Origin: Leucoraja ocellata | Taxonomy: Eukaryota | NCBI GenBank assembly: GCA_036785375.1 | Contig: JAWMAR010000023.1 | Coordinates: 11,222,001 to 11,286,000 of the forward strand | Length of the DNA: 64,000 bases | Direction of reading: 5' to 3' | Shown here: one piece after another, positions 1 through 62,300 of the stretch | How the letters are laid out: every line of letters starts with the position of its first letter | How positions within the stretch are numbered: the stretch's first letter is position 1 | The notes under the pieces: model-generated | Databases searched by the model: none | Seen by the model: only the letters and a program-made list of their open reading frames with translations | Told to the model about the DNA's origin: nothing | Program-made: the position numbers and the translations under genes

Positions 1-245
1 TTAGCTCGGGGCAGTAATGCATTCTGACAATGGCACATTGGCGATTTAACCCAGGAGCAAACCCCCCTAGCGGGCTGTCTGTGTGGATGTCTGATTAGCT
101 AGATAGTCCAGGCTCTCTCCACAGATGCCTGATTAGGTTGGTAGCTCCTTCAAGCAACCCGTGTGGATTTGTCCCCGCAGATGAGAATATAAATTGGTTT
201 GTGTTACTGGCCTGAGTGACTGATCCCTGTAGGGGTCCCCAAACC

Positions 246-2290: not shown

Positions 2291-2487
2291 AATGCTTGTT
2301 TTCTCTCATGGATCTATCTATAAGCCCTTTTAGTACCAGATAACAAGCAGCAGGATATTATTAGTGCCACACATTATAATTCACATTGTAAAGCAATGCA
2401 ATAAAAGTTTGCCAGCAAAAGTAAAGCATGAGAAAGTCATCCTTGTTTAACAAGAGGAAAAACACCAATGTGAAGGAAGGAAGGATG

Positions 2488-2690
2488 GAACTGCAGATGC
2501 TGGTTTAAACTGAAGATAGACACAAAATGCTGGAGGAACTCAGCGGGACAGGCAGCATCTCTGGAGACTGAGAATAGGTTGAAGACTAGGATTGGACTGA
2601 AGAAGGGTCTTGACCCGAAACATCACCCATTCCTTCTCTCCAGAGATGTTGCTGCCTGTCCCGCTGAGTTACTCCAGCATTTTGTGTCTC
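2488..2690. mobile_element. Penelope-derived fold-back insert
   Basis: Inverted arms (gacacaaaatgctggaggaactcagcgggacaggcagcatctctggag and its reverse complement), central ctgaagaagggtcttgacccgaaac, flanking cac/ctaatgtgaagg duplication. Confidence 0.75.
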
Positions 2691-3989
2691 ACACTAATGT
2701 GAAGGTGCAAATGCTCTCCAGTCAACAGAACTCTTTCAAAAATCACATAGCAATTTTTCCGATCCAATAGCCAGTTGGTTCTGAACAATAAACAGTCACA
2801 ACAGCTTTGGGGAACTTTACTTCACTGCTACAAAATCTACAGGACAATATTAATAGAATCAGATAAAAGTGCTTCAAGAAAATTGCTCTGCTGTTGATTA
2901 AACATTTGCTGCGGGATATCTGAATATTATCATGATATCTTTATGTATAATTTCTTAACCACACTGAATTGGCGAAGTTACAACATTTTGGAAAATAATT
3001 TGCAAAAATAAGGGATAGGTTTCCAACTGACCTCTCAATGCACTGTGGTACATACTGGGTGCTGTAAATTATTTGGGATGCAATCTTAAACCATTTAAAA
3101 TGGAACATCTGCAGATCCCTGCATAAAACTAGGCAGCTGCCTTTTCATCACTTTAGATGAAATGAGGCAACTCTGCGCAAACACTTTTTCATGATTGAAA
3201 GCTAATCCTGTGTTAGACGAGTTGCACAATAACATGAAAAATCAGGAGAAATGTAAACACAGCTTGGACATTTTAAGTAAGCGTATTCTGTATGCCTGCA
3301 TAGAAACGTATCAAAATTACATTATTCTCCTTAATAGAGCTACTAACTAATTTACAAACAATTTATAACTCACAATATCACAAAGAAGATAAGATTCACT
3401 GAAGCTGTCAAAATTACCAGTTTATTACATGGGCCAGGCTGGGGTGCTGCTAAAATTATATTTTTGTGAACAAAAATGGAAGAAATATATCTTTTTTTAA
3501 TAGATTAGTTTATTCAAATTCATGTGAACTGCAACAAGACAAATATTAAGTTAGTTTCTTTCCAGTGACTATATTTAGGATCAAAGTACTATTTAAAATG
3601 AAGAGATAGGCAGTGCAACAAAAGGGCAAGTGCAGAGCCAGCTGATGTGAACTTTCTTTCAACCTCAACTGCTTGCCAAGATAAATATGTTGAACTGCTC
3701 TCCACGGGTTACACTTAAACGGGAAGAGTTCACCTAGTGGAGCTCTGTGACAAAATGGAAAAGCAATTATACTTTATTTGAATGAGAACTGCACATCAGC
3801 TCAAACTGTTAGAAAACCACCGCCCTCTCTCTCCTTCACAAGATAAATGGCAACTACAGATAATGTTTACCCTCTTTGGATTCAAGACAATGTACAATTA
3901 GAAAAGCAGTTGCCTTTAATAACCTTTACAAATGGACAAAAAAGGGACACATTATTATACCTGACCTCCAGCACATCCTCTAGCAGCAC

Positions 3990-4890
3990 ATTCTCTCTAC
4001 GCATCGCCCTGCGTGCAAAAAAACTGCCCCCCTCAGGTCGCTTAAATCATTCTCCTCTCACCTTAAACCAAAGCACTCTAGTTTTAGCCTCCCCAAGCCT
4101 GTGCAAAGACTGTGGCTGCTAACTTTATCTGTATTCTTCATTATTTTATATACCTCTCTGTGTGGTCACCTGCAGCCTCTGCGCTCTTGGGAATAATGAC
4201 CCAGCCTACCCACATCTCCGAACTCAAACCCCCCAAACCCAGTAACATGTCAGTAAATCTCTTTTGCAGCCTTTCCAGTTTTCTGGCATTTTGATTTTCA
4301 GCAAGGCGACCAGAACTGTGTGCAGTACTGCAAATGTGACCCGACCAATGTCTTGTACAGCTGCAACATTGCATCCCAACGCCGGCGGTGAAGGCAAGCG
4401 GGCCAAACGCCTTCTCCATCACCCAGTCCACCTGTGTCACCACCTTCAACAACCATGTACAGGATTCCCAGGTCTCTCTGTTCCACAATACAGGCCAGGG
4501 CCATACCATTTACCATGCCAGTCCTGCCCAGGTTTTTCCTACCTACAAAAATGCCGTACCTTGCATTTTCTCAACTGGCATGCACAAAAACTTTTCACTG
4601 TACCTCTGTACACATGATAATAAATTAAACTGAACTGAAACTCTATTTGTCATTAGGCCCATGGTCTCATTGATCTAGATCCTGATGTAAGTGTAGATTA
4701 CCTTCTTTACAGTCCACTGTTATAGTCACCTGCACCTTGCTACACATGTCACCGACATTCACATCCAAACTTTGAATAAATAACGAACAACAGTGGACCC
4801 AGCACCCATCCCTGGGGCCCACCACTTGTTACAAGCCTCCTGTCTGAAAAACAACTCTCTATCACCACCCTCTGCTTCTAAACAATTTTG
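3990..4890 (-). mobile_element. CR1-type LINE ORF2 fragments, interrupted by a Rex1-like tail at about 4575-4640
   Basis: Translations LYKTLVGSHLQYCTQFWSP and KLERLQKRFTDMLLGL, typical of the CR1 RT C-terminal region. Confidence 0.75.
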
Positions 4891-4899
4891 TATTCAATT

Positions 4900-5145
4900 G
4901 TTTAAGAAGGAACTGCAGATGCAGGAAAATCGAAGGTAGACAAAGTACGTTTTTCACACACAGGTGGTTATGTGGTACAAGCTGGCAGAGCGAAATTATA
5001 GAGACAGATAGAATTACAGCATTTAAAAGGCATTTGGACAGGTATTTCAGCAGGAAAATAGAAGGAAGGCAAAAGTGCTGGAGAAACTCAGCGGTGCAGC
5101 AGCATCTATGGAGCGAAGGAAATAGGCAACGTTTTGGGTCTAGTT
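4900..5145 (-). mobile_element. Penelope-derived insert carrying an internal ~120-bp LINE fragment
   Basis: gtttaagaaggaactgcagatgc...ggagaaactcagcgg...ggaaataggcaacg, split by an inverted copy of 2046-2175. Confidence 0.7.
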
Positions 5146-5791
5146 GAGCTTCCTGACAGTATATTTCATTCAAAGTTATTCATTAATGATCTCCAATCAC
5201 TTTCATCACTACCACTGAGCTGGATTGCATAACCTCAGTTCACAAGGAAACCAATATTGCTGAGGTTGTCATCATAAAGTATTAGACACTCCATGTCAAC
5301 CTAGAAAATTCTCTGATGTGATCAATCTGGGTTTCTACGCTCACTCTGATTAGAAGGGCAACATGTATTCTAATTATTAACAAATAACTTGCATTTATAT
5401 AGAGACTTATATATAACTTGAGAATATTCCACAGCTTCCAAGTTGATAAACTACTTTTCAAGTACAATCCCAAATAAAATGCCGAGAAAAGACACTAGCT
5501 ATTTATCATGCTCAGTATTGGATTAGATTACAAAGGCCTGGTGAAAATAGTTTTTCCGTGTGGTTTTCAACTTGACGTATGTGCCATTCCATCCTTGTGA
5601 AATCCCACTGGAATTTCCCACTTTAATGTCTTCAAGATGAGAGATTTAACAACATAGCATAGGCTAAACTAGACTTGAACTGAAAACACTGATCATATAA
5701 CTAAAATTTACCATCTTCAAAGAGGAATTTCCCGACCAGTGGATGAAAATAAATCTAACAGCTGCATCATGACATTGTTCATCAAATGTAC

Positions 5792-5959
5792 CTTAGCAGC
5801 TGAGTTGGAGACTCCGTGCGTGACATTTCGTATTAAGCCTCCAACGTTTCCATACTTGATCAGCCCTGAAACGCCCTCCGACACATCATTCAAAAGTCCC
5901 ATTGGATTGCCCAGAAAATCCACCGAGCCCAGTATTCGAGTCGCCTGGCTCATCAATTC
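5792..5959 (-). CDS. VPS13D: VPS13D exon (~65), 168 nt, VPS13_C/ATG2_C-like region
   Basis: [56 protein letters not shown]; atag|...|gtacat; the next exon was not found in the window. Confidence 0.95.
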
Positions 5960-8900
5960 CTATCAACAAAAAGACATTTTACCATAAGAAATAACCAATG
6001 TATTAATGTCCATTTTTAGTAAGATTTGGCATTAACCTTTGGGTTACCGTTGAGAAGATAGTTGCATGACTGGCTCAGCTACCTCAACAGGCAACCACTT
6101 TGACGTGGGACTGACAAAAATCAAAATTTCAAACATGTGGCTCAATGGTTTCATAACCAGGTTCAAACCTAACCTCTGTTGCTGCATCTTTGGAGTTTGC
6201 ATGTCCTATCTGTGACCGAATGAGATTCCTCTAGGTTAGCGTGAAGAAGGGTCTCGACTCGAAACATCACCCATTCCTTCTCTCCAGTGATTCCTCCAGG
6301 TGGCTTTGATTCTCTCCCCCAACATCTCAATAATCATACCAGTTAATGTAGCAGCATCATTTGAAATATGAAATGTAAGTTACCCACCACTGATACATAT
6401 CTGATAAAGCTGATAAACGCTGGCTTCAGACAAACCGCCCAATAATTTCCTTTGTCCGAAGCAACTGCAGATGCAGGTTTAAACCATAGATAGACACAAA
6501 ATGCTGGAGTAACTCAGTGGGACAGGCAGCATCTCTGGAGAGAAGGATTGGGTGACGTTTCAGGTCAAGTCTGAAGAAGGGTCTGGACCCGAAACGTCAC
6601 CCATTCCTTCTCTCCAGAGTTGCTGCCTGTCCTGCTGTAATTTCCTTCCGTTGGCCTCTCTCCTCTAAACAGTCGAATAACAATTCACGATTTTCCAGTC
6701 TTCTAAACTCTAAAGATTCTTGAACGATGACTACTAATGCCGACAACTCGACAGCTATCTCTATAAGAAGCCTGGGGTGTAATCCATCTGGTCCAGGTGA
6801 CCAGATTTAACACTGATAGGTTTGAAGAAGGGTCCCAACCCAAAGCATCTCATGTCCATTTCCCCTTCATCTATGCTGCCTGACCCGCTGAGTTCCTCCA
6901 ACACTGTTTATTTGCTTAAATTCCTTGTATACATATTTGGATAATAACATTTATTCAATTCAAGATTCCAGCATTTGCAATATCTTGTGACTCCAGGTGA
7001 GATCAAGCCTTGAAACTAAAGCAAGCTCGTCCCTCCGGTTACGCTTGCTCTTCCAGTCAAGACTCACTCTGAAGCACACATTGCATGCTAAGTGCTGCAA
7101 ACAGTAATGTTAATTAGACACTGTTTGCCAATACAATGATGGAATCTCACCTTTCTTCATTATCACATTCCACCCTGCTGCCCTATGTCTTCCCCACTTA
7201 TCACCTGGAGATAGACAAACAAGCTGGAGAAACTCAGGGATGAGGCAGCATCTATGGAGCAAAGGAAATAGGCAACGTTTCGGGTCCAAACCCTTTTTCA
7301 AACTGATGTGAGGGTGGGGGCAGGAAGAAGAAAGGAAGAGGTGGAGTCAGTGGGCTGAGGGAGAGCTGAGAACGGGTGGTGAAAGTAGGGACCACCTGAA
7401 ATTAAAGTCAATGTTCATGCCGCGAGGGTGCAAACTGCCCAAGCGGAATATGAGGTGCTGCTCGTCCAATTTACGGTGGTCCTCACTCTGGCCATGGAAG
7501 AGGCCCAGGACAGAAAGGTCAGATTTGGAATGAGAGGGGGAGTTGAAGTGCTGAGCCATCGGGAGATCAGGTTGGTTATTGTGATCCGAGCAGAGGTGTT
7601 CGGCGAAGCGATCGCCAAGCCTACGCTTGGTCTCACCGATGTAGAGCAGCTGACATCTAGAGCAGCGGGTGCAATAGATGAGGTTGGAGGAGGTGCAGGA
7701 GGTTTTTACGAATGTGTGAGGAAACCAGAGCTTCTGGAGTAAACTCACGGGAAGAACGTACAAACTCAGCACAGACAGTACCTGTAGTCAGGATCGATCG
7801 GGCTCTCTGGTGCTGTAAGGTAGCAACTCTACAGCTGTGCCATCGTGTCGCTACTGAATGCCAATTATTTCACATGCAGAGCCTCCAAGAGGAAAAGGTA
7901 GACCAATTTCCTACTGTTGGACTAGGTATGTCTAAAGTGTTCATTGTATTTTAACCTTTGGTGGAATAATAATTTCTGTTTGACCAGCTCAGCTGCCCAC
8001 TCGAATTCTCACCTCCTTAAAATGCTTGAGAATGTCGTTGATAATGAACTCCTGTGTCTCATATGGGTGCACTCTGGTGTATGGGTCCAGGTGGATCACT
8101 GCATCCTCAAAGCGGATCAACCGGATGCCCAGCATGCCCTTCAAAGCCTGCAACAACAAACAAAAAAATAACACCAAACTGATACCTGCAAAAATAAGAG
8201 CAAAGGATGACTAATTCAGGGAGTTCAGAGTGAAAGCTGACTCGGAATATCATGTCAAAGCCAGAGCACTGCCTAAGGGAAAGTAACCTGTCAATTTTAT
8301 TCTGTTATCAACAGACATCTATGACTTAACCATGCCGTAAGATTAGGATGATTCATGTAGTTTGATTGTGTCATTTACAAAGGTCAAAAGGCTGACAGTG
8401 ATGATGGGAACCAGAAAATAATCACTAAGGACAAGGAAAGTCCCTTCGTCTGCAAGCTCATTCCTTCAGGGAGCCGACCCACAGTTTTAGTTTTAGTCTT
8501 ATTTCTCTTATTTCGTCGACTATTTCAAATATTTCACTGTTTCTGATCTCGGACATGTTTTCTTGGCTCAGTTACATGGCACTCGCGCCTTTCTTTCAAT
8601 AGTCGAATTATCAATTCCCATTCTACTGAAGAGATATTCTCAACTGACATTCCTGTGCAGCACTGAAAAACATTCATCATCCTTTGTGCGAGATGTTATT
8701 ACAAGGCTTTGTCTACGTTTCCAATATCTAGATGATATATGGCACCATTGGAACAACAGAGTACTTTTCCAAAATCATGATCAGAATTGCTCCTCGTCTC
8801 AAATATCATCAAAATTTGATATATTGTCTAGTTATATCAGTACCATGCGGGGCTCGTATAATGGAAAACAGTTGCTATATTTTCTTGTACATCTACAAAT

Positions 8901-11900
8901 TATGCTGATTCTATGACCAAACAAGTTGCAACAGAACTATGTCTCCATTTCCTTTTAATTTTCACTAATTTGTGATGCTGTAACTATAGATAGTTTCCCA
9001 CTTGTTTGATCAATGTCTATTGCTCTTAACCAGACCTCTGACAACTTCCACTGGAGTTCTATGGGCTCTGAAGTGGTTTATAATGTCATAAAGGAATAGT
9101 AGAATTAGGCCATTCGACCCATCTAGTCTACTCCACCATTCAATCATGGCTGACCTATCTCTCCTTTCCTAACCCCATTCTCTTGCCTTCTCCCTATAAC
9201 CTCTGACACAGGTACTAATCAAGAATCTATCCTTCTCTGCCTTAAAATTATCCACTGACTTGGCCTCCACAGCCTTCTGTGGCAAAGAATTCCACAGATT
9301 CACCACCCTCTGACTGAAGACCTGTAGCATGTGCAGACGGCCACAGTTCGAGCAAGAGACATTCATCAGGTAAGGTGGATGAACGGTAGGTGCTTTCCAG
9401 TTTAGATGGGGGCATCTTGGTCTGCATGGGCTAGTTGGGCCGTAGGGCCTATTTCCGTGCTGTATGACTATGCCACGTATAGCACGATCTTAAGAAACTC
9501 GCCTTGAATTCAACAGGTAGCTTGCTTGAAGTAAATACGCTCATCTTGATTTGTGGCATGCTGAGTTTGAGGTTTTCAAAGTAATAGCGCTTTGCTGTTC
9601 CACTTTTCTCATTGTTCTGTTCAGGGGCATTTTCATCTGGCTTTTCTACATCTGTGAAGGAAGGAGTTTAAGATATCAAAACTTTCACATCTGAAATGAA
9701 CTGCTCTTGTACACTGAACACAATTAATTAGTGAGGCACACATGGTTACTTAGATTAAAGCTTCACTGATCAATGGTAAATTAAGATGATGATATGGAAT
9801 CATTCGATAGTGCTGATGGAGGCTTTAATTAAATAGAACCCCTAGAGTACAAATCAAAAAGCAAAAAATATATTAAAAATGCAGGTGCTTAAAATCTAAA
9901 GAACAGAACAAAACCTACGGGTCAGACATTTGCGGAGAGGAAAAACAAACGGCGATATTTAGCTTTGTTTAGAAGTACAGGACAGGAAAAGGCCCATCGG
10001 CCCATCGATTCCACACCGGCCATCGATCACCCGTTCACACTAGCTCTACGCTATCCCACTTTCTCATCCACGCCCTTTACATTAACGGGAATCTTACTGA
10101 GGCCAATTAACCTACAAACCCACACGTGTCTGGGATGTGGGAGCAAACCTGAACAGCTGGAGGAAACCCATGGGAGTCACAGGTAGAACGTGCAAACTCC
10201 ATACAGACAGCACGTGAAGTCAGGATCAAGCCCGGGTCTCTGGCGCTGTGAGGCAGCAACTCTACCTATTTCATTGACCTGAAAGGTTGATTCTGCTGCT
10301 CTCTCCACTGATGCTGCCAGATGCATGAAATATTTTGTGCATTTCATTTCCGCGTTTAAATAACCATCTAAAAAAAGTTTATAGAAAGGCTACTCTGGAG
10401 AATTCACCATCTCAGTATGGCAACAGATTCCTCAGTCTTTGTCACGAGCTTATGACCCTGACCGGCCATGTTCGGCAGTTGTCATTCTGGCAAACACAAA
10501 GGAACCTTAATCCCCTAAATCAGACTCACCCACCATTAGACAACGTGTTATTTATAATATAGACAAACTTTATTATATACAAGGAAGTTGTCAATTTAAA
10601 ACAGAAAGTCAAACCACTTTGTTACTTTTTTAATCTTCGCCTTGGGTTTAGACTCGACAAGTACCACACCTGCCTTCTACCCCCCATCCCCCCACCCCCC
10701 CCCCCCCCCACCCATCCCCCCACCCATCCCCCCACCGCCACCACCCAGCCACCTGAAATCCAGTAACCGAATAAGTAAGCTGCACCGGGCAACCATATAA
10801 ACTGCTCATGGATTTCACAAGCAATTACAAATATATTTTTTGCTCTATCAGTGTAATGTAAAAAGCCTGGATAATTTCTGGGTGAACATCACTGAAGCAG
10901 TTTAGTTGCAGTTAGAGCCCACAATGAGTGCCACTGATTGAACTCAAATTGATTGACATTTTATAACACAGATTATAATGATTAACATATATATCCTGGA
11001 GTGATTTGAAGGTTAGAAAATTAATCAGAATTAAGATACAGAATTTTTTGAACCCCTCAATTAGATTATGTTGCAACTTATTCTGGTATATGTTTTGCTT
11101 CATATACAAATCATCCATCCCCCCAGTTAGATTCTAGCCTGCAGGTGAGTGCAGATATTCTCCATTACATTGGAGTGTCCATGCATTTGTATTTTAATGA
11201 CCCGTACAACTGTATTCCACTAAGCTGAACAAGTGTCTAATAATATTTCAATCTTATTTCCTTCGCATACCTATATCATAAGCTGAAAAAATATTTTTCT
11301 AGATTTGGCGAGATCTGAAAAAAAGGTATTTTCCAACCTTCAAAACCCAATCAACAGTGGAAATCATCAACAAACTATAAACAAAAATGCACTCCAGCAT
11401 CAGGGCTGGATGGTTGGGATTCAAGGGTTGGGTATGATCCTGAAACATACAAACCTCTCCACAGTAGTTTCAAAAGAAGAAGAAAATGCGGTCTTAAAAA
11501 TAGCACAGACTATCGTGTAATAACAGAGTACAAATGGGAACATATGTCTATCTGTTTCAACTTTACAGCAATAAACAGTTTAAGATGTTAACCACTCTTC
11601 CAAGAGTAAGTAAAGTCACCCATATGCAGTAGACCCTGGGTTCACCTTCTATCATGGTTTGAATTAGTGGACTTCAGCCTCCCTGTCCTCAAGATGAAAC
11701 AAGATAACCATATTAATCAGAAGTGGCTTTCTGATAGATGTTGTCATGGTAAATGTGTTTGATACAGGCCTAATGCATGGTTGTCTGAGTGCAACTCCCA
11801 GACCAGTACATAAACATTTTGTATACGACAACTTTGTGCCGCTTGCAAAGTCTACCGTAAACATTGTTTTTGACCCAAATGCAGTACAGGTGCACAACCT

Positions 11901-47292: not shown

Positions 47293-47325
<33 letters not shown>

Positions 47326-50300: not shown

Positions 50301-53300
50301 TGCTAAATTCAATTTTCTGATAGACTTTTATTACCTTTAACAATGGAAGAAAGTGTCCTACACTTTTTTATATTAAGTACTTACTTTGTCCGAGTAATGG
50401 ATCGACATACATTCCAGTCCTCCACTGAGATGTTTCTGAACTCTCACTTTCTTCCTTACAGTAGTCAGCAATCCAAGAGGCTTTTGTCCTTTTGCACTGC
50501 TCTATAAAAAACAAATAGAACAGTAAAATGAAAGGGATTGGGTTGGGTTGGAAATTATACTTTTGGAATAATGAACATTTAACATCTGTGGAGAGACACT
50601 TTATTCAGAATTCTTCCTCCTTCAAACCAGCCACTAAAGAGAATATGAGAGCAAGGATACCAACTGAAATGTATAAGTGTAATAGAGATGTAAAGAAGCA
50701 GATTTCACATTTCACTGCTGTACATCCATTCACAATAACTTTTCTGTACATCTCTCGTATAAACTAATGGTTGGCATTGGTTACAAAGTTCCAGCCAGCA
50801 TAAATCTCCAGTAATTTTCACAGACCAACAGGTAATCCTCAAGTTAACAGCTAACACAATGCCTGCACTAAGCTCTGCCGACCTGTTACTACTGAAGATT
50901 CCTTACCCATCAGGACAGATGTAATGTTGATGTCAAGCCGCTGTTTTGCTTGGAGATCCAACTTAAGTCGAGGTGGGTGAAGACGGCTAGCTGCTTGCTG
51001 CTGCCAACTCAGGAACGTTGTCCAAGGTTCTGCAAAAGGCTCCCACCCTAGTGTAAAAATATAGGGGACATTCAAGGCAGCCAAATTATGAAAAGCATAC
51101 AAACTACACCAAAGCAATTGATCTAAAGTTTGTGAAGGATTTGATACTGAACAGATAAGAGCTTTGCACCATCACATTCTTGCTTGTTACCTCGTCAACA
51201 GACTGTAATTAAATTGGTCTATTAGCAATATCCTGAATATTGTATCAGGGAGAGTTGGTCCATTTACACTTGTGATGTGTTGGTATATGTGTCACTACTG
51301 GCTGGTAAGATCCCCTGACAACATTTGAAATTCAAATTTTGTATTTTGTCAGAACTGGACTAGGGAGGCTAACCCCAAGTGCTAATCGTTTTGTTCATAT
51401 AATTCTTTAAAAGATTGCATTGGAAACTTTGAACTGATTTAGAAAAGAGCAAAACCAAACAATAATTAATTTCATGACGATTTTTCTTTGCTGAAACCCA
51501 ATACTGGTACTTTGGCCCTTGTAATATCTCCGTTCTTCTGAAAGACCTCCAAATCCTATCGTTTAATTGTGTTATTAAAACTCAAGATTCAAAAACTATT
51601 TTACTTTATTCATGGGATGTCAACGTGTTTTTGTCCTGCCAATAATTACCCCTTGGATTGGGGATTAGTAATTCATGTCAGGGGGCAAGTAAGATTGGAT
51701 AATTTCATTCACAGAGGACATCAACAAGCCAGATTTTTATCTTCTTTTATGATCACCCTGTATGCTCATTGAGATCATAACTGAATTACTTGAATTTAAA
51801 TTCACCAATTCCAATTCATGTCTCTGGATCAAATGTAAGGTGTCAAAGTACTAAATACTAGTCTGGTAATTTAACCCCTGCCAAGGAAGCTTGTTGCATG
51901 TTGTATAGAGTACGATGTACTTTATGCAACATGCAACTCGATGCAGTTGCTGATAATACTACGTTTTGCTGCTGCAAGTTAGAATTTCACTGTTCCGTTT
52001 CAGGACAAATGACAATAAAACTTGACTTGACTCTTTTCAAAAACTGCACAATAATCAGAGCTTGTCACCTTGGTACAAGCTATGAATCAGAGCAAAGATT
52101 TCCATATTTCAAATCCACACCTCTTTGGTCCTTGCCTGGCCAAAGCTGAAAATGGAACTGGATGCAGTTGAATGTTCCTGAGATTTAACTGAGCCGATGT
52201 GTGCGTGAACTCTATGCCTAACTGCAGCTTGCAGGACAAGCATGCTTTCCTGGATGCCAATGCAAGAGCACGAGGTTTTCACAATAACTTGGCCAGGAAG
52301 TTAAATACTGATACATTGGAGACCTGATTGGCAAAATAAAGTTTAAAGTAAACCTGAGGCCTTACAGCTTATCATAAATTTTAAAAGAATTAAGAAATAA
52401 CAGTATACATTATTGGATTTCTGCAACAAATCTGGAATCAAAATGCCCTCAATTTCAAATTCCTCAGCAATATAATCTAGAAATAATTCATTGAGTACAG
52501 AAAAGCTTTTATTGAAATAATAAATCAAACAACACTGCTACTCTGTTCTTTGTGCGGAGATTTGGCTACTGCTGAAAGATCTTGTTGTCTGTGTAAGGAC
52601 ATAAAGTCTTTGGTGTTGGAAAATCCTATCCAGCAGTCTGTTCGCTAATAAGCCACGTCAGCCAGAAAATCAAAAGAGCGCACATAAAACCCTTCAGGTC
52701 CCATGTCCCAGTGTATTGTAATTTAAATTATTCGGATGAACGGGGGGGGGGGGGGGGGCTCCATGGACGTTCTTTAAAAAAAACAAAAGCTGTCACAACA
52801 CCAGCACCAGAGGGTTTTAATATCTTTGTTCCCCATCAATTACAAAATTGCAACGATTTTGAAAACCAAATTAAAAATGTGCCTGCTTTTTAAGTTTTGA
52901 GCATTGGCAGTAGTTCCCATCACTACATCCAATGATGTGCAGTCACGAGGACAAGAATACTGCGGATGCTGGAAAAATCGAAGGTAGACAAAAATGCTGG
53001 AGAAACTCAGCAGGTGAGGAAGCATCTATGGAGCGAAGGAATAGGTGACGTTTCGGGTCTCGACCCGAAACGTCACCTATTCCTTCGCTCCACAGATGCT
53101 GCCTCACCCGCTGAGTTTCTCCAGCATTTTTGTCTACCTTCAACACTCAGAAGTAACTGTTTAATGTTTGAGTACTCAGGAAAGCATGCCTACAGTTGAC
53201 CTACAATACATTCAAGCAACAGCAAAAATCCAGCTTTTCAATGTTGAATACAAGCATTGTAAGCTAAAACAGAAGAATGAGCCAAGAATGCACAGCAGGT

Positions 53301-56300
53301 CAGTCTGCATTTGAAGCAGAGCATGCAGTTTACTGGTTTGAATATAACATTTTCAAGAGCACTTGAATTTCTGTGAAAAACTACCCAAAGCTGAATTGGC
53401 ACGGATCGCAATGGACAGGCTGTGCATTTCCAACTATTTCTGCTTTGCCTCAGATGTTCAATATTTGCAAATTTTTCTAACATCATGTGTACAGCATTAA
53501 ACACAGGTGATGATGTGGCACATAACCACTCTCAAATAATACTAGATATTAGCCCCATCTAGTGGTTATTACAGTGGAATATTGTTCTGTCATTCAAATA
53601 TTTCAATGTAATAAATGCTAGGGCATAACATACTGCCTAAGGGGGTTTTCCTGGTGGACCATTTGTCCCACAGCAGTGGGAAAAGTGTGTTTGCATTATT
53701 GAAGCTCATTGAGCTTCTAAACGCGTCTTTTCCCATTTACAGCCTTAAGGATTATCATTAAGGTGTTTTCCATGTAAAGGCAAAATAAATATATCTAGCA
53801 AAGATAAAAGTTATTCATGTGTTAGACACACAATGCTGGAGTAACTCAGCGAGACAGGCAGCATCTCCGGATAGAATGAATGGGCAACGTTTCGGGTTGA
53901 GACCGTTCGAGAGGTCTCGACCCGAAACATTACCCATTCCTTCTCTCCAGTGATGCTGCCTGTCCCGCTGAGTTACTCCAGCATTGTGTGTCTATCTTCG
54001 GTGTTAGCCAATTGTCTCACTTTTTCTAGTCTACAGAATTGTTACTTCACTCGGTTAGTGTCTTAACCTCCCCTATCCACTCATTGCAAATTTCCAGGGT
54101 TATATCAGCCATCCCACATTTTCCATTTTGGGACCAGACCAGGTAGGTGGGTCCTGCCACAACTTTACATTGAAGATACTTGGTACGTGGTGTAACAGCA
54201 CGCATATTCATTCAAAGTTATTACCTGAAGTATACAGTGCTTTCTATTTTTAATTAATAAGATCTTACCTGACAACTCACGGTTGTAATAATCTCCAGAA
54301 AGAGTAAAATTAGCCGACCCCTCTGGATTTGATCCCACTCTCTGCAGGAAGTATAATCCTAAATAAAGAAAATAATCCGCTTTAAGGGCCTATCCCACTT
54401 ACTCGATTTTTTCGGCGACTTCCCGGTACCCATCATAGTCATAAACAGGTCGCCAAAAATGTTCAACATGTTTAAAATCCAGCAGCGATCAGAAAAAGGT
54501 ACGACTCTTTGGGCGACTACTCACGACCATACAGGCGTCACCCCGCAGTCGCGGGGTGAAGCCTGTATGGTCGTGAGTAGTCGCCCAAAGAGTCGTACCT
54601 TTTTCTGGTCGCCGCTGGATTTTCAACATGTTGAAAATTTCCGGAGACCTGCTGCAACTATGACGGGTGCCGGCAAGTCGCCGAAAAAAATTGCGTAAGT
54701 GGGACAGGCCCTTTAAGCACCTGAATATGAAACGGTCCTGCTTCAATGATCAATAAAAACATGCTTAATAGATGAAACCCCTTCTATAGTTGCTCTAGAA
54801 TTGTGCGTTCCATAGCCATCTGCTCTCAATCCCAGAAATTGGGATTATCTTTTGTCCTCAACACACAAATTCCCCTTCAGTAATTTCTAAATCACATTGC
54901 TGCTAACTGTATTTTGGTGTACTGCAACAAAATTGATGGATGGTTTGGGTCCAGTTATACCTTGAGCTGTGGCAAAAGTATGATTTAACGAACTCTTGAT
55001 CCAATTACTATTTCTACACACATATCAGCAAATCTATCCATAATGTTGTAAACTTTTAACAAGTTGAAATCCATCTTTAACTAAGTTTGGTGTAATGAGA
55101 TGACTATGGAGGCTGGTGGGGTTGAAGGCGAGGACAACACTGTAAGAGAGGGAGTGTAGAGGAAGAGCAGGTGTGTAGGAAGCAGAGAGGGTTGATAACC
55201 CTCACCAACCATGGTCAAATGGAAGCCATGGTTCAAGACAAATGAATCTGTTTTAAACGGACTGGTCAACAGAACTGTTGGAGTTGAGACGGAGAAAGTG
55301 AGAAAATGGAATCGAGTTCTTGCAGGAAGCTCGTTTTCACCTCGATGGGTTAGTATTGAATCAGACAGTGACTTTTCCAACTTGTCTATTAAGGAAGCTG
55401 GGTCATTTTTAACAGTGTTGTTCAAGTAACCTACTTGAAAAGGTAAGTTCAGCAAGAGGTACATCACAATCCATGCAGTCATCGATCAAGCAGATACAGA
55501 TGCTCTCAGCTTTCACCTCGACCCCGGAGATAAGCAATGCTGCACCTGCTTCACCATCACTGCTGATCGCTGCTGCACCTGCCGACACGGGCTCAGCGTT
55601 CTTAAACAACCACATGGCTGCCTGATTCAGCTGGCCTGCACCGTTAGAAACAAACAGGAATTAAATTATTAAATATGTTCAGTAGCTCCGTTTATAACAA
55701 ACAATAAAATGCTGTGGAATCAAAGTGCTACCAATGCAGGTTATTATTTAAATTTGCAGCAAGCACACTGGACAATGAGCAGGAAGCATGAATATTGGCT
55801 GATTTGGTTCGACCATTCCATGGATTGAAATTGGTGCGGCATAGGCAAGCAATAAACAAAGAACTTCTGGTGTGAACTACTAAAGTTAGGCAATTCATCA
55901 TCTTTAAAGGGAATAGGATGCAAAGGCATTCTAACTTCCATAATTCTCAATAGACTGAAGGATCCAGAAACCACAAGTTTATACATGTGTCAAAATATCA
56001 ATCTGAATAAGAATGTTTCAAACAAGAGATATACGAGGAGAGACACACAACAAGCTGGAGTAACTCAGCGGGACAAAACCAGCAATCAAAATTAATTTGA
56101 ATTAATGCCACATTTTGATTGTAACTAAAGGAATGTCCACAGAATGAATTTCCGTGTTAAAGGAGAAATGTGTAGAGAACTTTCTCTCTTCAAACCAGAG
56201 CAGAAGAAGTGATATCTAAAGTGAAGCAGAAGAATTCACTTTCACTCCATCTTTTCCCGATGTAGTAAGAAGCCAACAACTATACAAGAAGGGGCCGTGT

Positions 56301-59300
56301 ATGTTCTCCAGCTTTGGATTGCAGCAGTGCTTTACGACAATCATCCAGGCTACATTTTCATTCAGATTCTTTTTTAGTAAAAGCCTCTTTGGAAATGGGT
56401 CAGGAACATTGCAAATCACAAATTCCAGGAAGCCAAATGGTTTTAAAATGTCTTTTCATAAACTATTTGATAAATGAGTCTTAATTTTTCCTCCTCTCCT
56501 CAAATTCCTGAGAATAATTTTCCATTCCAACATTAGGAGCATGACCAAAAATAATATACTCTACAGTTGCAATTACATGTATGTTCTCTACCTTTGGATT
56601 GCAGCAATGCTTTACGACAATCGTCCAGGTTAAATCCAAGGTCTTGGAGGCGATCCAGCTGCAACTCTGCAATAAAAGAAAGAAAATGCTGCTGTATAAT
56701 TAAAACTAACAATCTCTGCTTTTCACATGGGTTAAAGGCAATTTAAGGATTGTACATAAGCCTCTATATCACCTACGTTGTATATACAATTAGTACAAGC
56801 AACAGTTTTTATTCTAGAAAGGTAACCCCGTGGGAAAATGTGCAAAGCTGCAAAAAAATTACAGTCATTATTCAGCCACCATAATATGACGGTTCTTGAC
56901 TGATTTCAAATGGAGAGGATTAATATCAAACAGCTAAGTCCCAATTGGAATTTTCCCCACTTTCAAATCTTATAGACTTGCAATTTATAACGTGACTTAG
57001 TCAGCTGCCAAAAAAAATCCGGCAAACGTTTGGATTTTGACTTCAATTAACCATGGAGAGATTTGTAAATTACTCAGTTAGGAGCTAATTCAAGTAATTT
57101 ATAAAGAAGAATATTTTCTTTAATGAGGCAGTCATGATCTGATGAACTGACTATCTTTTAACTGGAGTTTAAAAATAGTCAAGAATGATACAATGACCTC
57201 ACTTGCCCAGAATTAATTGAGTCTAGACAATTTGAATCCAACTTGCATTTCTGAATGTTGACATAAAAAAAACAACTCATATACTTGGATATTAACTGGG
57301 AAACTTGTTAGGAAAGAATTAAAGAATGAGTAAATATGATAACTGCTATTTTATCAATGGTTCAATGGTACTTCAATGGTTCAGTGGTTCACTCATCTTA
57401 CTCATTCTTTAAGGTACACAAAAATGCTGGAGAAACCCAGCAGGTGAGGCAGCATCTATGGAGCGAAAGAATAGGTGACGTTTCGGGTTGAGATCCTTCT
57501 TCAGACTGATGTATACTGATGTGCTCATGTATAGAATGCTTTGACTGGATAGCATGCAAATAAAGTTTTTCATTGTATCTCAGTGTATGTGACAATATTA
57601 AAGCAATACCAATTCCAATTATAATTTGTCGAATACCATATTGGGAGCAGCTTGAGGGGCATGCAGACTACTGACAAAAAGGATAATCAATAAAGGGGTT
57701 CTGTTGCTTTGCCTATTACTTACCAAGGACAGGATCTATTTGGTGTCCACTTGTTTCTTTTTTCCCAGATCCTGTTGTTGAGATGCCTGTCAAACGAAAT
57801 GAGTTGGTATTGCCATTCATTGACCCAGGATCAGGCATGACAGGCACTGCAGTCGTCTGCTTCGGTATAGACTTCACTATTGCCAGAAATAGCTGTACAT
57901 CGTTGTATGAAAGTCTGATGTCAAGACTGGAGAATTGAATCTGAAACAAGAACAAAATAAGTTTAAGATTACGACAGATATCTATGGGCTTCTTTTGTGT
58001 ATCTATCTATAGTTCTATTATATGCATTATCTAGTCTTCTTTCTATTTTTGAACATGAAAAATGAAGCCTAGATTGAAAAGATATCAGTAATATCTCTTA
58101 AATTATTCGGTCTTCATTTTGAATTGTCATTGAAGCTCATCACTTTTGGGGCAAGAGTCTTCTGCCTCATATCCTTAGAGATGCAGCACAGAAACAGGTC
58201 TGAAGAAGGGTCTCGACCCAAAAAGTCACCCATTCCTTCTCCCCAGAGATGCTGCCTTCCCGCTGAGTTACTCCAGCTTTTTGGGTCTATCTTGGACAGA
58301 AACAGGCCTATTGGCCCACCAAGTCCGCGCAAACCAACTATCACCCCGTACACCTGCACTATCACTAGGAACAATTTCACAATTTCAAGAAGCCAATGAA
58401 CCTATAAACCTGTACGTCTTTGGAGTGTGGATGCACCTGGAGGAAACTCACGCGGTCACAGGTAGAACGTACAAACTCCATACAGACAGCATCCGTAGTC
58501 AGGATCAAACCCGGGTCTCTGACACTGTAGGCAGCAACTCTACTGCTGCGCCATTGTGCCACCCATTCTTCTTATTACATATTCTAAGACTATATACTGA
58601 TTTGCCAACAAACTACAGCACATGATCTATTTTAGACCAGCTGGCATTGACATCACCAAGTCAGATCTATAGTGTTTCCCAGTCGTTTTTCAAGACTAAC
58701 TTTCACTCTCATTTTCTTATTCTTGAAAAATGACAGAGAAAGACTGTTAAAGGGAGACATTATTTCAGCTTTCCATGGCATGGAAAAGACTCTTCTGCAA
58801 AAGGGTTGGAAGATTCTGGCCTCCATCTTGGAATGAGGCAGTGGCATGAAGTAAATGATCAGAATTTAGGATTATGATGCTCACAGATTGCACACTTGCC
58901 CTTCCTTTGGATATAAACGGACTATATTTCTGCTCTCTCGGACCGATATTGCCAAATGGGATACAGCAATCTTGTTAGAACCAATAAGATCTGGAACTTG
59001 TAAAGGCAGAAATTTGTATGCGAACCATTGATGTTCAGCCATTTGAATGGCCAATTTCAAAGCATGTGCTTTCAGACACATTTTATACACTGACTTGATG
59101 TGAATGGTTGGAGCATCTATTTTAGCTTTTTACTCTTGATGCTGTGCTAGTCTATTCAACCCAGTTTAATATCTGTAAGTGTTTCATCCAGATAAATGAG
59201 GTGGTTTAGCAATGGAAATAAGACAAATTCCAACTAATTTGCCTGTGTAAAGATAATGTATAATTTTTAATGTTTTGCTTCTCTTTTCTTTCATCTAAAT

Positions 59301-62300
59301 TCATCCACCTCCATATATCCTCTCTCTCCTTTCCCACCTAGAGACCTTCAGTGTCAATTTCATGAACTTTGGCTGCCCTCCAGTAGCTCAGTCAAGTGTC
59401 CATTCTTCCCTTGTAAAGCTAGACAGAGCCGCACACAGCATGCCTTCACTATGATAATTCCACTGAGGATAACCTCATCTTGTCTTAATCTTTAAAAGCT
59501 GAATAAATCTGCAAGTGATTATAATGCATAGCATAAAACAGTAACCACATCCAAAATCCAACTCCTCCTATCTTCTTCAATCTGTTCTCCACCCTCAACT
59601 AAAAGTACCACCACATGTTTGCTTTGAACCCAGAAAATTACAGTGGCTTTATGACGAGGGTTTCAGACTCTGGTGTGTCACACCAATGTCTCATGCCACA
59701 GCCAGGGGAAATTAAAGCTTTTAAAACTAACAAATAAAAATTGCTTCATTTACTGTTGATCTTCAAATTCGTCTCAATCTTATGTTAGCAGTGATGTAAA
59801 ATTATATTCACTCGTTATTGTTCTTGGAAATAGATGTTATAAATGAAGGCCCTTGATATCGAGCTTTGTGTAACAGTGATGCTCATTATAACTTAGGTCA
59901 AAGAGGGCAAAAGCTCATTGGAATTGTAGGACAAAACTTACGTTCAGACTTTCTTAATCTTTACTCCAAATTCGTGATTTATTATACTATAATGTTCAGT
60001 TCAGGAGCACTAAATATATGATGTATTTGTCCCTGGTGGATTACTGCTCTGCATTGATCAAAATGTTAAATGGTTGAAGTTAAAAACTTCTTGGTTTCTG
60101 TTTGATTTAAAAACTCTTCTTTTCAAAGTCAAAAGCCTTTTTATCATCCTTCGTGATTTATGATTAATATCGCAATAACTTACATCTGGAAATCCTTTAC
60201 GACTTTGGTTTGACTTCCTCTGTTTCTCTATTCTGCAATTCATAAAATCTGGTGTCTAACTGCCTCAAGGTGATTTGCAAATTATGAGTATTGCTTAAAA
60301 GAGCAAATGAAGCAAGCAGGGAAAATGAAGTAGCAATTTTATCCATGATTCTTGCATGTGATGCCCTGAGTAATAAGGGCTGGAAACTACAGTAGTGTCA
60401 GGGTTAGAGAAAGGTCAGCAAAGCAACTCCGCACAATTGCCACTGGCAGTTTGACATTTTCCCTGCAATCAGTATTTCAATCTCATGTGCTATTCATCTT
60501 TGGTTTTCTTATAAAACATATGTATGGAAAAGCAAGACACAGTACTTTAATGTTAAATGTGCATTCCTTTACAAAAGTGATCTAATAAACAACCATTTCA
60601 ATTGGAATCTCTTCAATCACTAGACTGTAAATAGCTGCTATTCCAAATAAAACACTGCTTGAATTTCTCTCTACTCTTCTTTAAACCCAAAATTACTGAT
60701 GAATGACTTTAAAGGCTTCTTCAGTAATATACTGACAAAAATATTGATTTCATAGAAACATAGAAATTAGGTGCAGGAGTAGGCCATTCGGCCCTTCGAG
60801 CCTGCACCGCCATTCAATATGATCATGGCTGATCATCCAACTCAGTATCCCGTACCTGCCTTCTCTCCATACCCTCTGATCCCCTTAGCCACATCTAACT
60901 GCCTCTTAAATATAGCCAATGAACTGGCCTCAACTACCCTCTGTGGCAGAGAGTTCCAGAGATTCACCACTCTCTGTGTGAAAAAAGTTCTTCTCATCTC
61001 GGTTTTAAAGGATTTCCCCCTTATCCTTAAGCTGTGAGCCCTTGTCCTGGACTTCCCCAACATCGGGAGCAATCTTCCTGCATCTAGCCTGTCCAACCCC
61101 TTAAGAATTTTGTAAGTTTCTATAAGATCCCCTCTCAATCTCCTAAATTCTAGAGAGTATAAACCAAGTCTATCCAGTCTTTCTTCATAAGAGTCCTGAC
61201 ATCCCAAGAATTTCAGGCAGAATCCCAACATTTAAAAAGGATAGAACCTGCTGGAATCACAATAGTTCAGGCAGCATCTGTGGAAATGGAAACTGTAAAC
61301 ATGTCCAGCATTTCTATTATTTCAGATTTCCGGCACTGCAGATTTAAAAAATGTTAATCTACCCTCAAATGTATGTCTCTTTCAAGTTGAAAGATGCAAG
61401 AGTCAATTGCAGGAGCTTACACACAGTATTCGAAAAAAAGGGAACAGAGAATTATGGGCCTGTGCCACTTAGGCTATTTTTAGGCGACTGCCGGTGACTG
61501 TCATAGCCGTAGCAGGTCACTGAAAAAATGGCGACTGGACCTCCCCTTCGACATAAAATTTGAAATAGAATCATTTACTTTAACAAAAAAAACCCCCGAA
61601 GTCAACAAAAAAAAACCGAAGTCAGCACCAGCGACAACTTACATCACCTGGGGACAACTACGACAGCACCTACGTAAGGAGAAGTCAAGCTGCGCTCATT
61701 GGTGTCAAACCCACTGTCACCGACTGTCTCAGAAAATGTTTCAACATGTTGAAAATCCAGCGGCGACCAGAAAGACACTATGACTCTTTGGGCGACTGAG
61801 GAGACTACTCATGACAATACAGGCAACACCCCGGCGACAGCCTAGTTACCTGTAGTTGCCTACAAAAATAGCCTAAGTGGAACAGGCCCTTTATTTTCCT
61901 TCTTCTTAATTAAGAAGCTAATCTGATTGTTGCACTCCAAACTACTGCATAGCTAAGAACAATTAACAATCACAGATTGACAATCAAATCTCAGAAGTCA
62001 TCTGTTAAAATGATACCTCAAGTACTGGTGGGAAATCCTCACTACCAAAGGCATCTAGTAGACCCGAGCTCCTCTGGTAGATAGGGTTGCCAATCAATTC
62101 TATCTGCACATTTACAGGATCGATAATGGACAATGCAGTCTCTTGCTCACTGCCAAGTCGACATGAAAACACCTGTAAATAGGGTAAAATAGCACAGGTT
62201 TAGAATCACAATCTGGAACACAAAAGGGGAAAATAAATCTAGCCAGTGTTTGCTGCAGTTTTAAAATATGAAAATATCAATGCAATTTATTTTTTTAAAG

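What the first reader, a model, noticed from the sequence alone, without database searches (positions are those of the whole stretch)
2488..61345. About 30 miniature Penelope-derived inserts, many fold-back hairpins whose apex is a hammerhead-ribozyme stem
Seen: roughly every 2 kb there is a 100-270-bp insert made of the terminal repeat that follows the Penelope GIY-YIG ORF at 7208-7700. Many are inverted pairs with 13-15-bp TSDs (17324, 20020, 25814, 38020, 45482, 48685). The repeat contains CTGAAGA-A-GGGT-N4-ACCC-GAAAC-GTC. In several fold-backs the symmetry axis falls in or next to that GGGT-N4-ACCC hairpin (53055-53066 exactly, also 45549-45563 and 48808-48845). Established: Penelope-like elements carry minimal hammerhead motifs (CUGANGA...GAAA...UH) with a palindromic helix III, and they often insert with an inverted terminal repeat. 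Inference: the ribozyme helix II may be the point where nascent cDNA folds back and self-primes. That would produce a reproducible, MITE-looking but retro-derived element class that fills pre-mRNAs with long dsRNA stems.
Basis: partly seen in the sequence, partly recalled or inferred. Interest (0 to 1): 0.7.

Follow-up and report, generated by a model that had tools for sequence, protein, structure and literature searches.

The report
Miniature Penelope hairpin retro-inserts
Thirty-two tiny pieces of the end of a Penelope retrotransposon, 13 of them folded-back hairpins, make up 7% of this intron-rich stretch of a likely skate genome, and their shared ends suggest that the enzyme likely copies its RNA twice, once from each side of the DNA cut, with the two copies probably joined in or near a mostly decayed ribozyme motif.

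Summary
There are 32 loci (7.2% of the window) of the terminal repeat of a Neptune-type Penelope-like element, inside a minus-strand VPS13-family gene. Thirteen are head-to-head fold-backs, and TSDs run 8-18 bp. The repeat carries a minimal hammerhead motif, intact in only 2 copies, with no Rfam hit.

The 'apex = helix II' claim holds only for a minority. One of 13 apices lies on the helix II axis and one on an overlapping 7-bp inverted match; arm ends inside helix II are not enriched (4 of 26).

Two stronger patterns emerged:
(1) 5' ends pile up just upstream of the ribozyme core (17 of 45 arms; only 2 pass it), not at the cleavage site.
(2) 3' ends are bimodal (the known Penelope 'tail'), and 12 of 13 fold-backs have exactly one tail; in 6 of these the tail-less arm reaches further 5', which a single snap-back cannot give.

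Best reading: double target-priming, run-off to a fixed RNA 5' boundary, then end joining that sometimes uses hammerhead palindromes. Inverted pLTRs, tails, hammerheads and junction self-priming are all in print, so this is a miniature, high-density variant with testable mechanistic clues.

The parts
7209..7700 (-). Longest copy: 5'-truncated, decayed Neptune-type Penelope 3' end (GIY-YIG fragment about 7380-7700, pyrimidine-rich spacer, hammerhead motif 7273-7300, tail-less end at +94)
   Evidence: Pfam GIY-YIG E=0.00098, below cut-off; 79% and 71% identity to Leucoraja proteins; linker motif in relatives
7301..7355 (-). Native sequence 5' of the hammerhead: 84% pyrimidine, no other AG for about 50 nt, branch-point-like heptamer near -51, ending in CAG at -4..-2; reads both as a 3' splice site and as an initiator-like motif (consensus motifs recalled)
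2484..2690 (.). Fold-back: tail arm 5' end +29, tail-less arm +1, 17-nt filler, 15-bp TSD
6458..6637 (.). Fold-back: tail arm +13, other arm -3..+67 with intact minimal hammerhead core at 6571 (+ strand, antisense to host), 10-bp TSD
15459..15681 (.). Fold-back: both arms reach about -2 (left arm diverged; +14 is an alternative reading), 11-bp TSD
17323..17528 (.). Fold-back: tail arm -5, tail-less arm +23, up to 4-nt junction microhomology, 14-bp TSD
20018..20143 (.). Fold-back downstream of the hammerhead: tail arm +54, tail-less +32, 14-bp TSD
25814..26087 (.). Complex fold-back: tail arm to +6, short inverted copy +9..+39, two further antisense pieces, tail-less arm from +37, 13-bp TSD
31771..32004 (.). 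Fold-back: tail arm +1 with intact core at 31886 (- strand, helix I 0 bp), duplicated hammerhead piece, decayed arm from -1, 13-bp TSD
38027..38173 (.). Fold-back: tail arm +44, tail-less arm about +25, 14-bp TSD
45482..45666 (.). Young fold-back: tail arm +11, tail-less +26, junction on 7-bp inverted match, 72-bp predicted stem, 15-bp TSD
48685..48946 (.). Complex fold-back: tail arm +7 with short inverted copy +9..+38, 26-nt filler, tail-less arm to +22 with an 11-nt snap-back-like extension, 17-bp TSD (2 mismatches)
52959..53141 (.). Fold-back with axis exactly on helix II (53055-53066); loop belongs to the tail-less arm; no TSD found
53823..54000 (.). Fold-back with no tail on either arm, apex near +6..+10, 7-bp TSD-like repeat (below threshold)
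61235..61341 (.). Old, decayed fold-back, +43 / +74, 9-bp TSD
4900..5142 (-). Tail piece (4900-4944) and tail-less piece (5060-5142) separated by unrelated sequence
6242..6291 (+). Solo +2..+51, 13-bp TSD
6820..6905 (+). Solo -2..+82
15199..15270 (-). Solo about +19..+84
15773..15870 (+). Solo -1..+97, 8-bp TSD
19379..19471 (+). Solo +5..+98
27113..27151 (-). Solo +52..+91
29498..29607 (-). Old solo -2..+117 with tail
32505..32567 (-). Old solo +3..+63
34531..34629 (+). Solo -2..+97
36673..36746 (+). Solo +51..+122 with tail
38196..38314 (+). Solo -3..+122 with tail, 9-bp TSD
44236..44355 (-). Solo +2..+95 preceded by a 28-nt tandem repeat of its start, like a false start at the inner initiation site
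44837..44951 (-). Solo -1..+123 with tail
50083..50201 (-). Solo about +7..+125 with tail, 18-bp TSD (2 mismatches)
56039..56075 (-). Solo +58..+94
57411..57512 (-). Solo -8..+95, one of two arms that pass the 5' edge
58198..58293 (+). Solo -2..+95, clean 11-bp TSD abutting both ends
5720..62886 (-). Host VPS13-family gene (VAB, middle and UBA domains; VPS13D by domain content, name recalled); the inserts lie between its exons

Best explanation
These are very short insertions of a Penelope-like retrotransposon's terminal repeat, likely made when its enzyme primes DNA synthesis from both ends of a staggered cut at two start sites about 30 nt apart, probably runs to a fixed RNA boundary just upstream of the hammerhead motif, and the two copies are then likely joined head-to-head. 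Numbering: C of CUGA = +1. Shown in the sequence: 3' ends at +82..101 or +116..129; 5' ends piled at -5..+3; exactly one tail in 12 of 13 fold-backs; 8-18-bp TSDs; both arms of one subfamily. From published work on another clade: the two 3' ends are RT start sites, both DNA strands are primed, and uncleaved RNA is the template (PMC11167929). Inferred here: (a) the two primings are coupled, one per site, probably on one RNA; (b) the -2 edge is an RNA 5' end (transcription start at an initiator-like motif, about 0.5) or a block at a 3' splice site (about 0.3); (c) the two antisense cDNA ends are joined bluntly, with filler, or through inverted microhomology, which helix II and its neighbours supply passively; short snap-back extensions occur at some ends. 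The ribozyme is not needed as a catalyst, and the copies are unlikely to cleave the host pre-mRNA.
For: 3' ends of 45 arms: 25 at +82..101, 0 at +102..115, 17 at +116..129, 3 earlier. One tail in 12 of 13 fold-backs and never two; p=0.0009 against independent choice. Tail-less solos have clean TSDs (58198, 15773), and the tail-less arm abuts the TSD with zero gap in 9 of the 11 fold-backs with TSDs (boundaries hand-curated). Tail-less arm reaches further 5' than the tail arm in 6 of 12, tail arm further in 4, near ties in 2. TSD in 11 of 13 fold-backs against 5 of 19 solos, p=0.003. 5' ends: 17 of 45 at -5..+3, p=3e-6 against uniform, only 2 further upstream; 2 of 45 near the cleavage site. 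Flanks upstream of the edge are unrelated to each other, to the native upstream and to the GIY-YIG end. Both arms are of the same subfamily in 12 of 12; mean relative rank of the partner arm is 0.11 over 24 arms. Junctions 52959 (+9/+21) and 45472 (+11/+26) match the strongest short-spacer inverted matches predicted for their subfamilies. Intact minimal core in 2 copies only.
Against: Only one 64-kb window and 13 fold-backs; breakpoints were curated by hand and several are ambiguous (2484, 15453, 38025, 50083). Long palindromes suffer later central deletions and arm-to-arm conversion (established knowledge), which could create the arm asymmetry and arm similarity after insertion. 45472 and 17322 fit a snap-back of the tail-bearing cDNA equally well, and 25819 and 48685 contain short inverted copies that look like real snap-backs. 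How one RNA would be copied twice over the same stretch (strand displacement) is untested. The in vitro work is on a Poseidon-clade protein and reports no strand difference in start site. In D. virilis the transcription start lies about 120 nt upstream of the intron end that abuts helix I (PMC2377424, PMC4209133), so a start at -3 would differ from that element. No expression data were available.
Confidence: 0.58

Rival explanations
1. One reading: one nascent cDNA folds back at hammerhead helix II and primes its own second arm.
For: 52959 has its axis on helix II, and 45472 on a 7-bp inverted match with a predicted DNA hairpin of -4.0 kcal/mol, the strongest in its subfamily. 12 of 19 non-edge fold-back arm ends lie at +5..+26, p=0.006, post hoc window. 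Short inverted copies in 25819 and 48685. Self-priming at junction palindromes is proposed in PMC3846280.
Against: 4 of 26 arm ends in helix II, p=0.6. In 6 of 12 each arm has sequence the other lacks, and in 52959 the loop belongs to the tail-less arm. The copied arm would have to stop at the same site where independent solos begin. The helix II DNA hairpin is weak, -2.1 to -2.7 kcal/mol.
Confidence: 0.12
2. Mixed route: two primings happen, but the joint is made by snap-back of one cDNA followed by annealing to the other cDNA; or all fold-backs begin as near-perfect palindromes at the RNA 5' edge and later lose their centres at microhomologies.
For: Multi-piece junctions (25819, 31771, 48685). 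Two fold-backs with both arms at the edge (15453, 31771). The most asymmetric centres include diverged copies (2484, 6458, 17322, 20002: 10-16% arm divergence).
Against: The youngest copies (45472, 25819, 38025, 48685, 52959; 0-4% arm divergence) already have centres at +6..+44, so short centres are not only an ageing effect.
Confidence: 0.18
3. The short units are a self-propagating non-autonomous family: a few master hairpins or solos are transcribed and re-mobilised in trans, so the shared ends are inherited, not made afresh.
For: The short inverted pieces of 25819 and 48685 both span +9..+38/39 and share a G29A change absent from their own tail arms. Only 1 of 32 loci carries coding sequence. 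pLTRs suffice in cis for mobilisation in trans (PMC3846280).
Against: No two of the 13 fold-backs share both inner breakpoints. The -2 edge recurs in all four sequence groups, and no shared flank is carried along.
Confidence: 0.1
4. Class II MITEs with terminal inverted repeats.
For: Small size, inverted arms, high density.
Against: TSDs vary from 8 to 18 bp. Arms are unequal by a tail. 19 of 32 loci are single arms. The repeat is contiguous with a Penelope GIY-YIG. Real MITE-like elements in the same window have a different 16-bp terminal repeat.
Confidence: 0.01

Closest known systems
EN+ Penelope-like elements, Neptune clade (inverted pLTR plus 30-40-bp tail architecture; PMC8557442, PMC3846280)
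   Same: C-terminal GIY-YIG followed by a terminal repeat with hammerhead motif; head-to-head inverted 5' copy; tail on one end; variable TSDs (8-10 bp in the rotifer paper); palindromes and overlaps at the inverted junction.
   Different: Here 31 of 32 insertions have no coding sequence and are at most about 275 bp, at one per 2 kb. They show a sharp shared 5' edge just upstream of the hammerhead, which I did not find described in the texts read.
Poseidon element of Anolis (PAc; PMC11167929)
   Same: Two RT start sites that define the tail, on the order of 100 nt downstream of the hammerhead; both strands cut and extended; no use of hammerhead-cleaved RNA (here 2 of 45 5' ends near the cleavage site).
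   Different: Different clade. The paper saw no strand difference in start site, while here fold-backs almost always pair one tailed with one tail-less arm.
Minimal hammerheads of metazoan PLEs (PMC4209133)
   Same: Core boxes, extra unpaired base 5' of helix II, G10.1-C11.1 pair, no helix III loop, palindromic 15.2-16.2. Mostly single motifs from truncated PLEs; opposite-strand pairs 100-700 bp apart were already reported.
   Different: Helix II is 4-5 bp rather than 7-8 and helix I only 2 bp (as in D. virilis). Only 2 copies in the window keep a full core.
Non-LTR retrozymes (bioRxiv 10.64898/2026.07.22.740005)
   Same: Short, non-coding, pLTR-derived, hammerhead-bearing, present in a chondrichthyan.
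   Different: Retrozymes are head-to-tail tandem arrays with ribozyme-defined units. These are dispersed solos or head-to-head pairs whose ends do not match the cleavage site.
L1 twin priming (recalled, no paper read)
   Same: Both target nicks prime, giving a 5' inversion with a TSD and microhomology at the junction.
   Different: In L1 the two cDNAs cover adjacent, non-overlapping parts of the RNA. Here both cover the same 50-90 nt, giving a hairpin.

Membership tests
EN+ Penelope-like element | GIY-YIG endonuclease at the ORF C-terminus, followed by the terminal repeat | tested here: met
   Pfam E=0.00098, below cut-off; 51-79% identity to the 11 hits, best to Leucoraja proteins; repeat contiguous at 7209-7700
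EN+ Penelope-like element | Telomerase-related RT upstream of the EN | not testable with these tools
   The only coding copy is truncated inside the EN. Relatives reached through P0005 carry RT (PF00078) plus EN in 800-1000 aa.
EN+ Penelope-like element | 30-40-bp tail on one end | tested here: met
   Bimodal 3' ends about 30 nt apart; 12 of 13 fold-backs one-tailed
EN+ Penelope-like element | Inverted 5'-truncated copy, head-to-head | tested here: met
   13 of 13 inverted pairs are head-to-head
EN+ Penelope-like element | Variable-length TSD | tested here: met
   8-18 bp in 16 of 33 boundary pairs, null 1.25%
EN+ Penelope-like element | pLTR includes the first codons of the ORF | tested here: inconclusive
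   An ATG at +50 opens up to 26 codons to the tail end in subfamily B, but gives no clear match to N-termini of the 46 long relatives (best local score 39, no null run)
Neptune clade | CX2-5CXXC linker before the GIY-YIG | tested here: inconclusive
   The window copy starts after the linker. It is present in the elasmobranch relatives P0002-P0005 and in most long relatives, so the assignment is by association.
Minimal type I hammerhead (PMC4209133) | CUGANGA and GAAA..UH core with helix II and extra 5' base | tested here: met
   Family consensus matches. Descriptor finds 2 intact copies against 0.09 in 100 shuffles. Helix II pairs 88% of cells.
Minimal type I hammerhead (PMC4209133) | Helix I of 4-5 bp (2 bp in D. 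virilis) | tested here: inconclusive
   2 bp at best, 69% of cells paired. The hammerhead fold is 4.5-8.3 kcal/mol above the MFE in the four consensus RNAs.
Minimal type I hammerhead (PMC4209133) | Covariation in helices | tested here: not met
   Covariation score 0.186 against 0.202 shuffled, 332 of 500 shuffles as high; these are decayed copies, so the test has little power
Minimal type I hammerhead (PMC4209133) | Self-cleavage as dimer or with protein | not testable with these tools
   Needs an in vitro assay
Rfam hammerhead families | Covariance-model hit | tested here: not met
   No hammerhead family among 22 matches at E<=1; a motif without helix III is probably outside those models (inference)
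Non-LTR retrozyme | Head-to-tail tandem units, each with a complete hammerhead | tested here: not met
   No such array among 12 tandem repeats; only a decayed 29-nt duplication at 31862-31924
MITE (class II) | Fixed short TSD and equal terminal inverted repeats | tested here: not met
   TSD 8-18 bp, unequal arms, 19 of 32 single-armed

The most novel reading that the evidence does not exclude
Most Penelope insertions in this genome are run-off copies of the first 100-130 nt of the element's RNA. A dimeric RT binds two CCAGCA repeats about 34 nt apart, primes one DNA end at each site on the same RNA, and the hammerhead's palindromes serve as the joint. This yields a retro-made hairpin class, some members of which are re-mobilised as masters, that loads skate pre-mRNAs with dsRNA stems much as inverted Alus do in primates.
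Probability: 0.3. Interest if true: 0.65.

Novelty: new variant of a known kind. Interest (0 to 1): 0.42.

Why it matters
How Penelope-like elements make inverted repeats and a one-sided tail, and what their hammerhead is for, are open questions; only one element has been studied in vitro. A genome with one miniature insertion per 2 kb gives a very large natural set of junctions. The one-tail rule and the sharp 5' edge can be tested at once from an assembly, and they separate double priming from self-priming. In practice such elements are easily misfiled as MITEs or miRNA hairpins (the Rfam hits are sub-threshold miRNA-type models), and they would be the main source of intronic dsRNA at this locus. 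The components themselves are known, which caps the surprise.

Tried and rejected
Rfam scan at E<=1: no hammerhead family, only sub-threshold hairpin-type hits. Covariation count on 15 motif copies: not above shuffles. Enrichment of ends inside helix II: none (4 of 26 fold-back arms, 2 of 19 solos); at the cleavage site: none (2 of 45); fold-back versus solo difference in the +5..+26 window not significant (p=0.12). Spliced-exon explanation of the 5' edge: no shared upstream exon and no match to the GIY-YIG end in 18 flanks, and TSDs abut the edge in 58198, 38196 and 15773. ORF start inside the repeat: no clear support. The 8-of-11 count of G at -2 was entered from an early reading and is superseded by 9 of 13. 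The first TSD scan used rough boundaries and self-overlapped on short loci; it was replaced. Three weak BLAST loci were dropped, and five inner pieces of complex loci plus the fragments 4900-4944 and 44236-44262 were left out of the 45-arm table. Literature searches for Penelope with skate and palindromic (0 papers), twin priming (3 unrelated by listing), Neptune, MITE and palindrome, cartilaginous fish (1), self-priming and solo, hammerhead and shark found no description of this family. Repbase, Dfam and subscription journals were not searchable, so a prior entry is quite possible. No animal genome collection was available, so copies outside the window stayed unchecked; viral and metagenome contigs also stayed unchecked.
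Full report
SETTING. The window lies inside one large gene on the minus strand. Of 13 exon-bearing ORFs sent to Pfam, four match VPS13_VAB, one VPS13_M and one UBA; seven match nothing. This domain set is that of VPS13D (name recalled). The nearest relatives of the retroelement fragment are Leucoraja, Mobula and Hypanus proteins, so the host is a cartilaginous fish, likely a skate.

INVENTORY. BLAST with 13 reference copies gave 35 merged loci. After dropping three weak ones, merging one pair and splitting one, 32 remain, covering 4,597 bp or 7.2%. I numbered the repeat from the C of CUGA (+1) and decomposed each locus against four subgroup consensuses. Thirteen loci are inverted pairs, all head-to-head, and 19 are single arms. 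One copy (7209-7700) continues about 400 nt upstream into a GIY-YIG fragment: Pfam E=0.00098, below cut-off; 11 hits among 70 candidates, best 79% identity. Close relatives carry the CX4CXXC linker that marks the Neptune clade (definition in PMC8557442). A class II origin is excluded.

HAMMERHEAD. The consensus fits the minimal PLE hammerhead of PMC4209133: core boxes, extra base before helix II, G10.1-C11.1, no helix III loop. But Rfam gives no hammerhead hit. A descriptor finds only 2 intact copies (6571 on +, 31886 on -) against 0.09 expected, with helix I of 2 and 0 bp. Covariation is not above shuffles. In the four consensus RNAs the ribozyme fold lies 4.5-8.3 kcal/mol above the minimum, with helix II probability 0, 0, 0.01 and 0.37. 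The only intact core on the host-transcribed strand has no helix I. Cleavage of the host RNA is therefore unlikely (inference).

3' ENDS. Of 45 curated arms, 25 end at +82..101, none at +102..115, 17 at +116..129 and 3 earlier. This is the Penelope tail, which PMC11167929 showed to be the stretch between two RT start sites, with both DNA strands cut and extended. Twelve of 13 fold-backs carry exactly one tail, one has none, none has two (p=0.0009 against independent choice). Each site lies 10-20 nt after a well-conserved CCAGCA, the two about 34 nt apart; that these are binding sites is a guess.

5' ENDS. Seventeen of 45 arms stop at -5..+3 (p=3e-6 against uniform over -5..+70) and only two pass it; two stop near the cleavage site at +28/29. 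Among 13 edge arms with T at -1 (57411 excluded), 9 have G at -2, about 2.6 expected, so the modal edge is -2. The sequences upstream of the edge resemble neither each other nor the native upstream sequence. The native sequence there is 84% pyrimidine, free of AG for about 50 nt, has a branch-point-like heptamer and ends in CAG. It reads as a 3' splice site, like the D. virilis intron that ends at helix I (PMC4209133), and also as an initiator-like motif (consensus recalled). Either an RNA 5' end or a block at the splice site would give the edge. Cleaved RNA is not the template, in line with PMC11167929.

THE APEX CLAIM. Only 52959 has its axis on helix II. 45472 uses a 7-bp inverted match overlapping helix II. 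Both are the strongest short-spacer inverted matches predicted near the ribozyme for their subgroups, out of 3-8 matches of >=5 nt per subgroup, so microhomology there matters. 53823 and the short inner hairpins of 25819 and 48685 turn at +6..+10. Arm ends strictly inside helix II are not enriched (4 of 26, p=0.6). A wider window, +5..+26, holds 12 of 26 (p=0.047), or 12 of 19 if edge ends are set aside (p=0.006), but I chose it after seeing the data. A single self-primed cDNA requires the tail arm to contain the other arm. In 6 of 12 one-tailed fold-backs (2484, 6458, 20002, 38025, 52959, 61235) the tail-less arm reaches further 5'; in 4 the tail arm does; 2 are near ties. In 52959 the loop is in the orientation of the tail-less arm. 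Later central deletions could produce some of this asymmetry, and 45472, 17322 and the inner pieces of 25819 and 48685 are compatible with real snap-back.

MECHANISM. The best fit is double priming. A staggered cut is made; one end is primed at the inner site and the other at the outer site; both cDNAs run toward the fixed boundary; and their 3' ends, both antisense and on opposite strands, are joined bluntly, with filler, or through inverted microhomology such as helix II. In support, TSDs are kept in 11 of 13 fold-backs but 5 of 19 solos (p=0.003), both arms are of one subgroup in 12 of 12, and an arm's partner ranks near the top among all arms (mean relative rank 0.11), though conversion could also cause that. 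The ends, tails and TSDs are shown; coupling of the primings, the nature of the edge and the joining route are inferred. One unexplained point: the short inverted pieces in 25819 and 48685 span the same +9..+38/39 and share a change absent from their own tail arms, which hints at a re-mobilised master with a 5' palindrome.

CONSEQUENCE. On the host-transcribed strand 12 of 13 fold-backs fold far better than approximate shuffles (z -6 to -36), with uninterrupted stems of 38-72 bp in six; 45482 gives -146.8 kcal/mol, z=-23. Editing or small-RNA production is untested.

WHAT IS IN PRINT. PMC3846280 (passages and Discussion read) describes inverted pLTRs with tail, TSDs and junction palindromes and proposes self-priming. 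PMC4209133 (parts 1-2 of 4) reports widespread solo minimal hammerheads and opposite-strand pairs 100-700 bp apart. PMC11167929 (parts 1-2 of 4; supplement 2 gave only figure labels, so its map of genomic ends could bear on the novelty of the 5' edge). PMC8557442, PMC2377424, PMC6155905 and PMC8969392: passages only. bioRxiv 10.64898/2026.07.22.740005: parts 1-3 of 5, supplements not seen. Lunse et al. 2017, Arkhipova 2006 and L1 twin priming are recalled, not read. Searches found no account of this miniature family or of the edge and one-tail statistics; Repbase and Dfam could not be checked.

VERDICT. The fixed 5' edge and the one-tail rule are the parts worth following. New variant of a known kind; interest 0.42.

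Noticed in passing
window 37650-37886, 54379-54718, 61447-61898, and a right-facing end at 19022: MITE-like elements with a shared 16-bp terminal inverted repeat (7 matches, 0.01 expected); at 54379 the flanks read as a 3-bp TTA duplication, as in PIF/Harbinger MITEs (recalled). 54446-54651 is itself a 101-bp near-perfect hairpin.
   Followed up: partly
window 25940-25969 and 48794-48824: Short inverted pieces in two separate insertions span the same +9..+38/39 and share one base change absent from their own long arms; possible common master with a 5' palindrome.
   Followed up: partly
repeat positions about +75..80 and +109..114: A CCAGCA direct repeat about one tail length apart precedes each 3' end cluster and is among the best conserved columns; candidate binding sites for two enzyme subunits.
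   Followed up: no
window 7293-7300 (- strand): The long copy has U3 and A8 in the hammerhead core, the compensated variant reported for Schistosoma PLEs in PMC4209133; single copy, may be chance decay. Subgroup B helix II carries a UUCG loop.
   Followed up: no
window 44238-44292, 31862-31924, 50161-50191, 57505-57522: Short tandem duplications at cDNA start or end points, like false starts or template jumps (the last seen directly).
   Followed up: partly
window 12185-12890: GC-rich block of nested inverted repeats with arms up to 106 nt, unrelated to the Penelope repeat.
   Followed up: no
window 56294-56351 and 56580-56631: The short exon encoding the UBA-like stretch appears in two similar copies about 290 bp apart; possible duplicated or alternative exon.
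   Followed up: no
window 60842-61231, 4141-4509, 41807-42205, 58296-58560: 3' fragments that look like CR1-, L2/Rex- and SINE-type repeats (labels recalled; two of these ORFs were scanned and gave no informative Pfam hit); the solo at 58198 is inserted at the start of the last.
   Followed up: no
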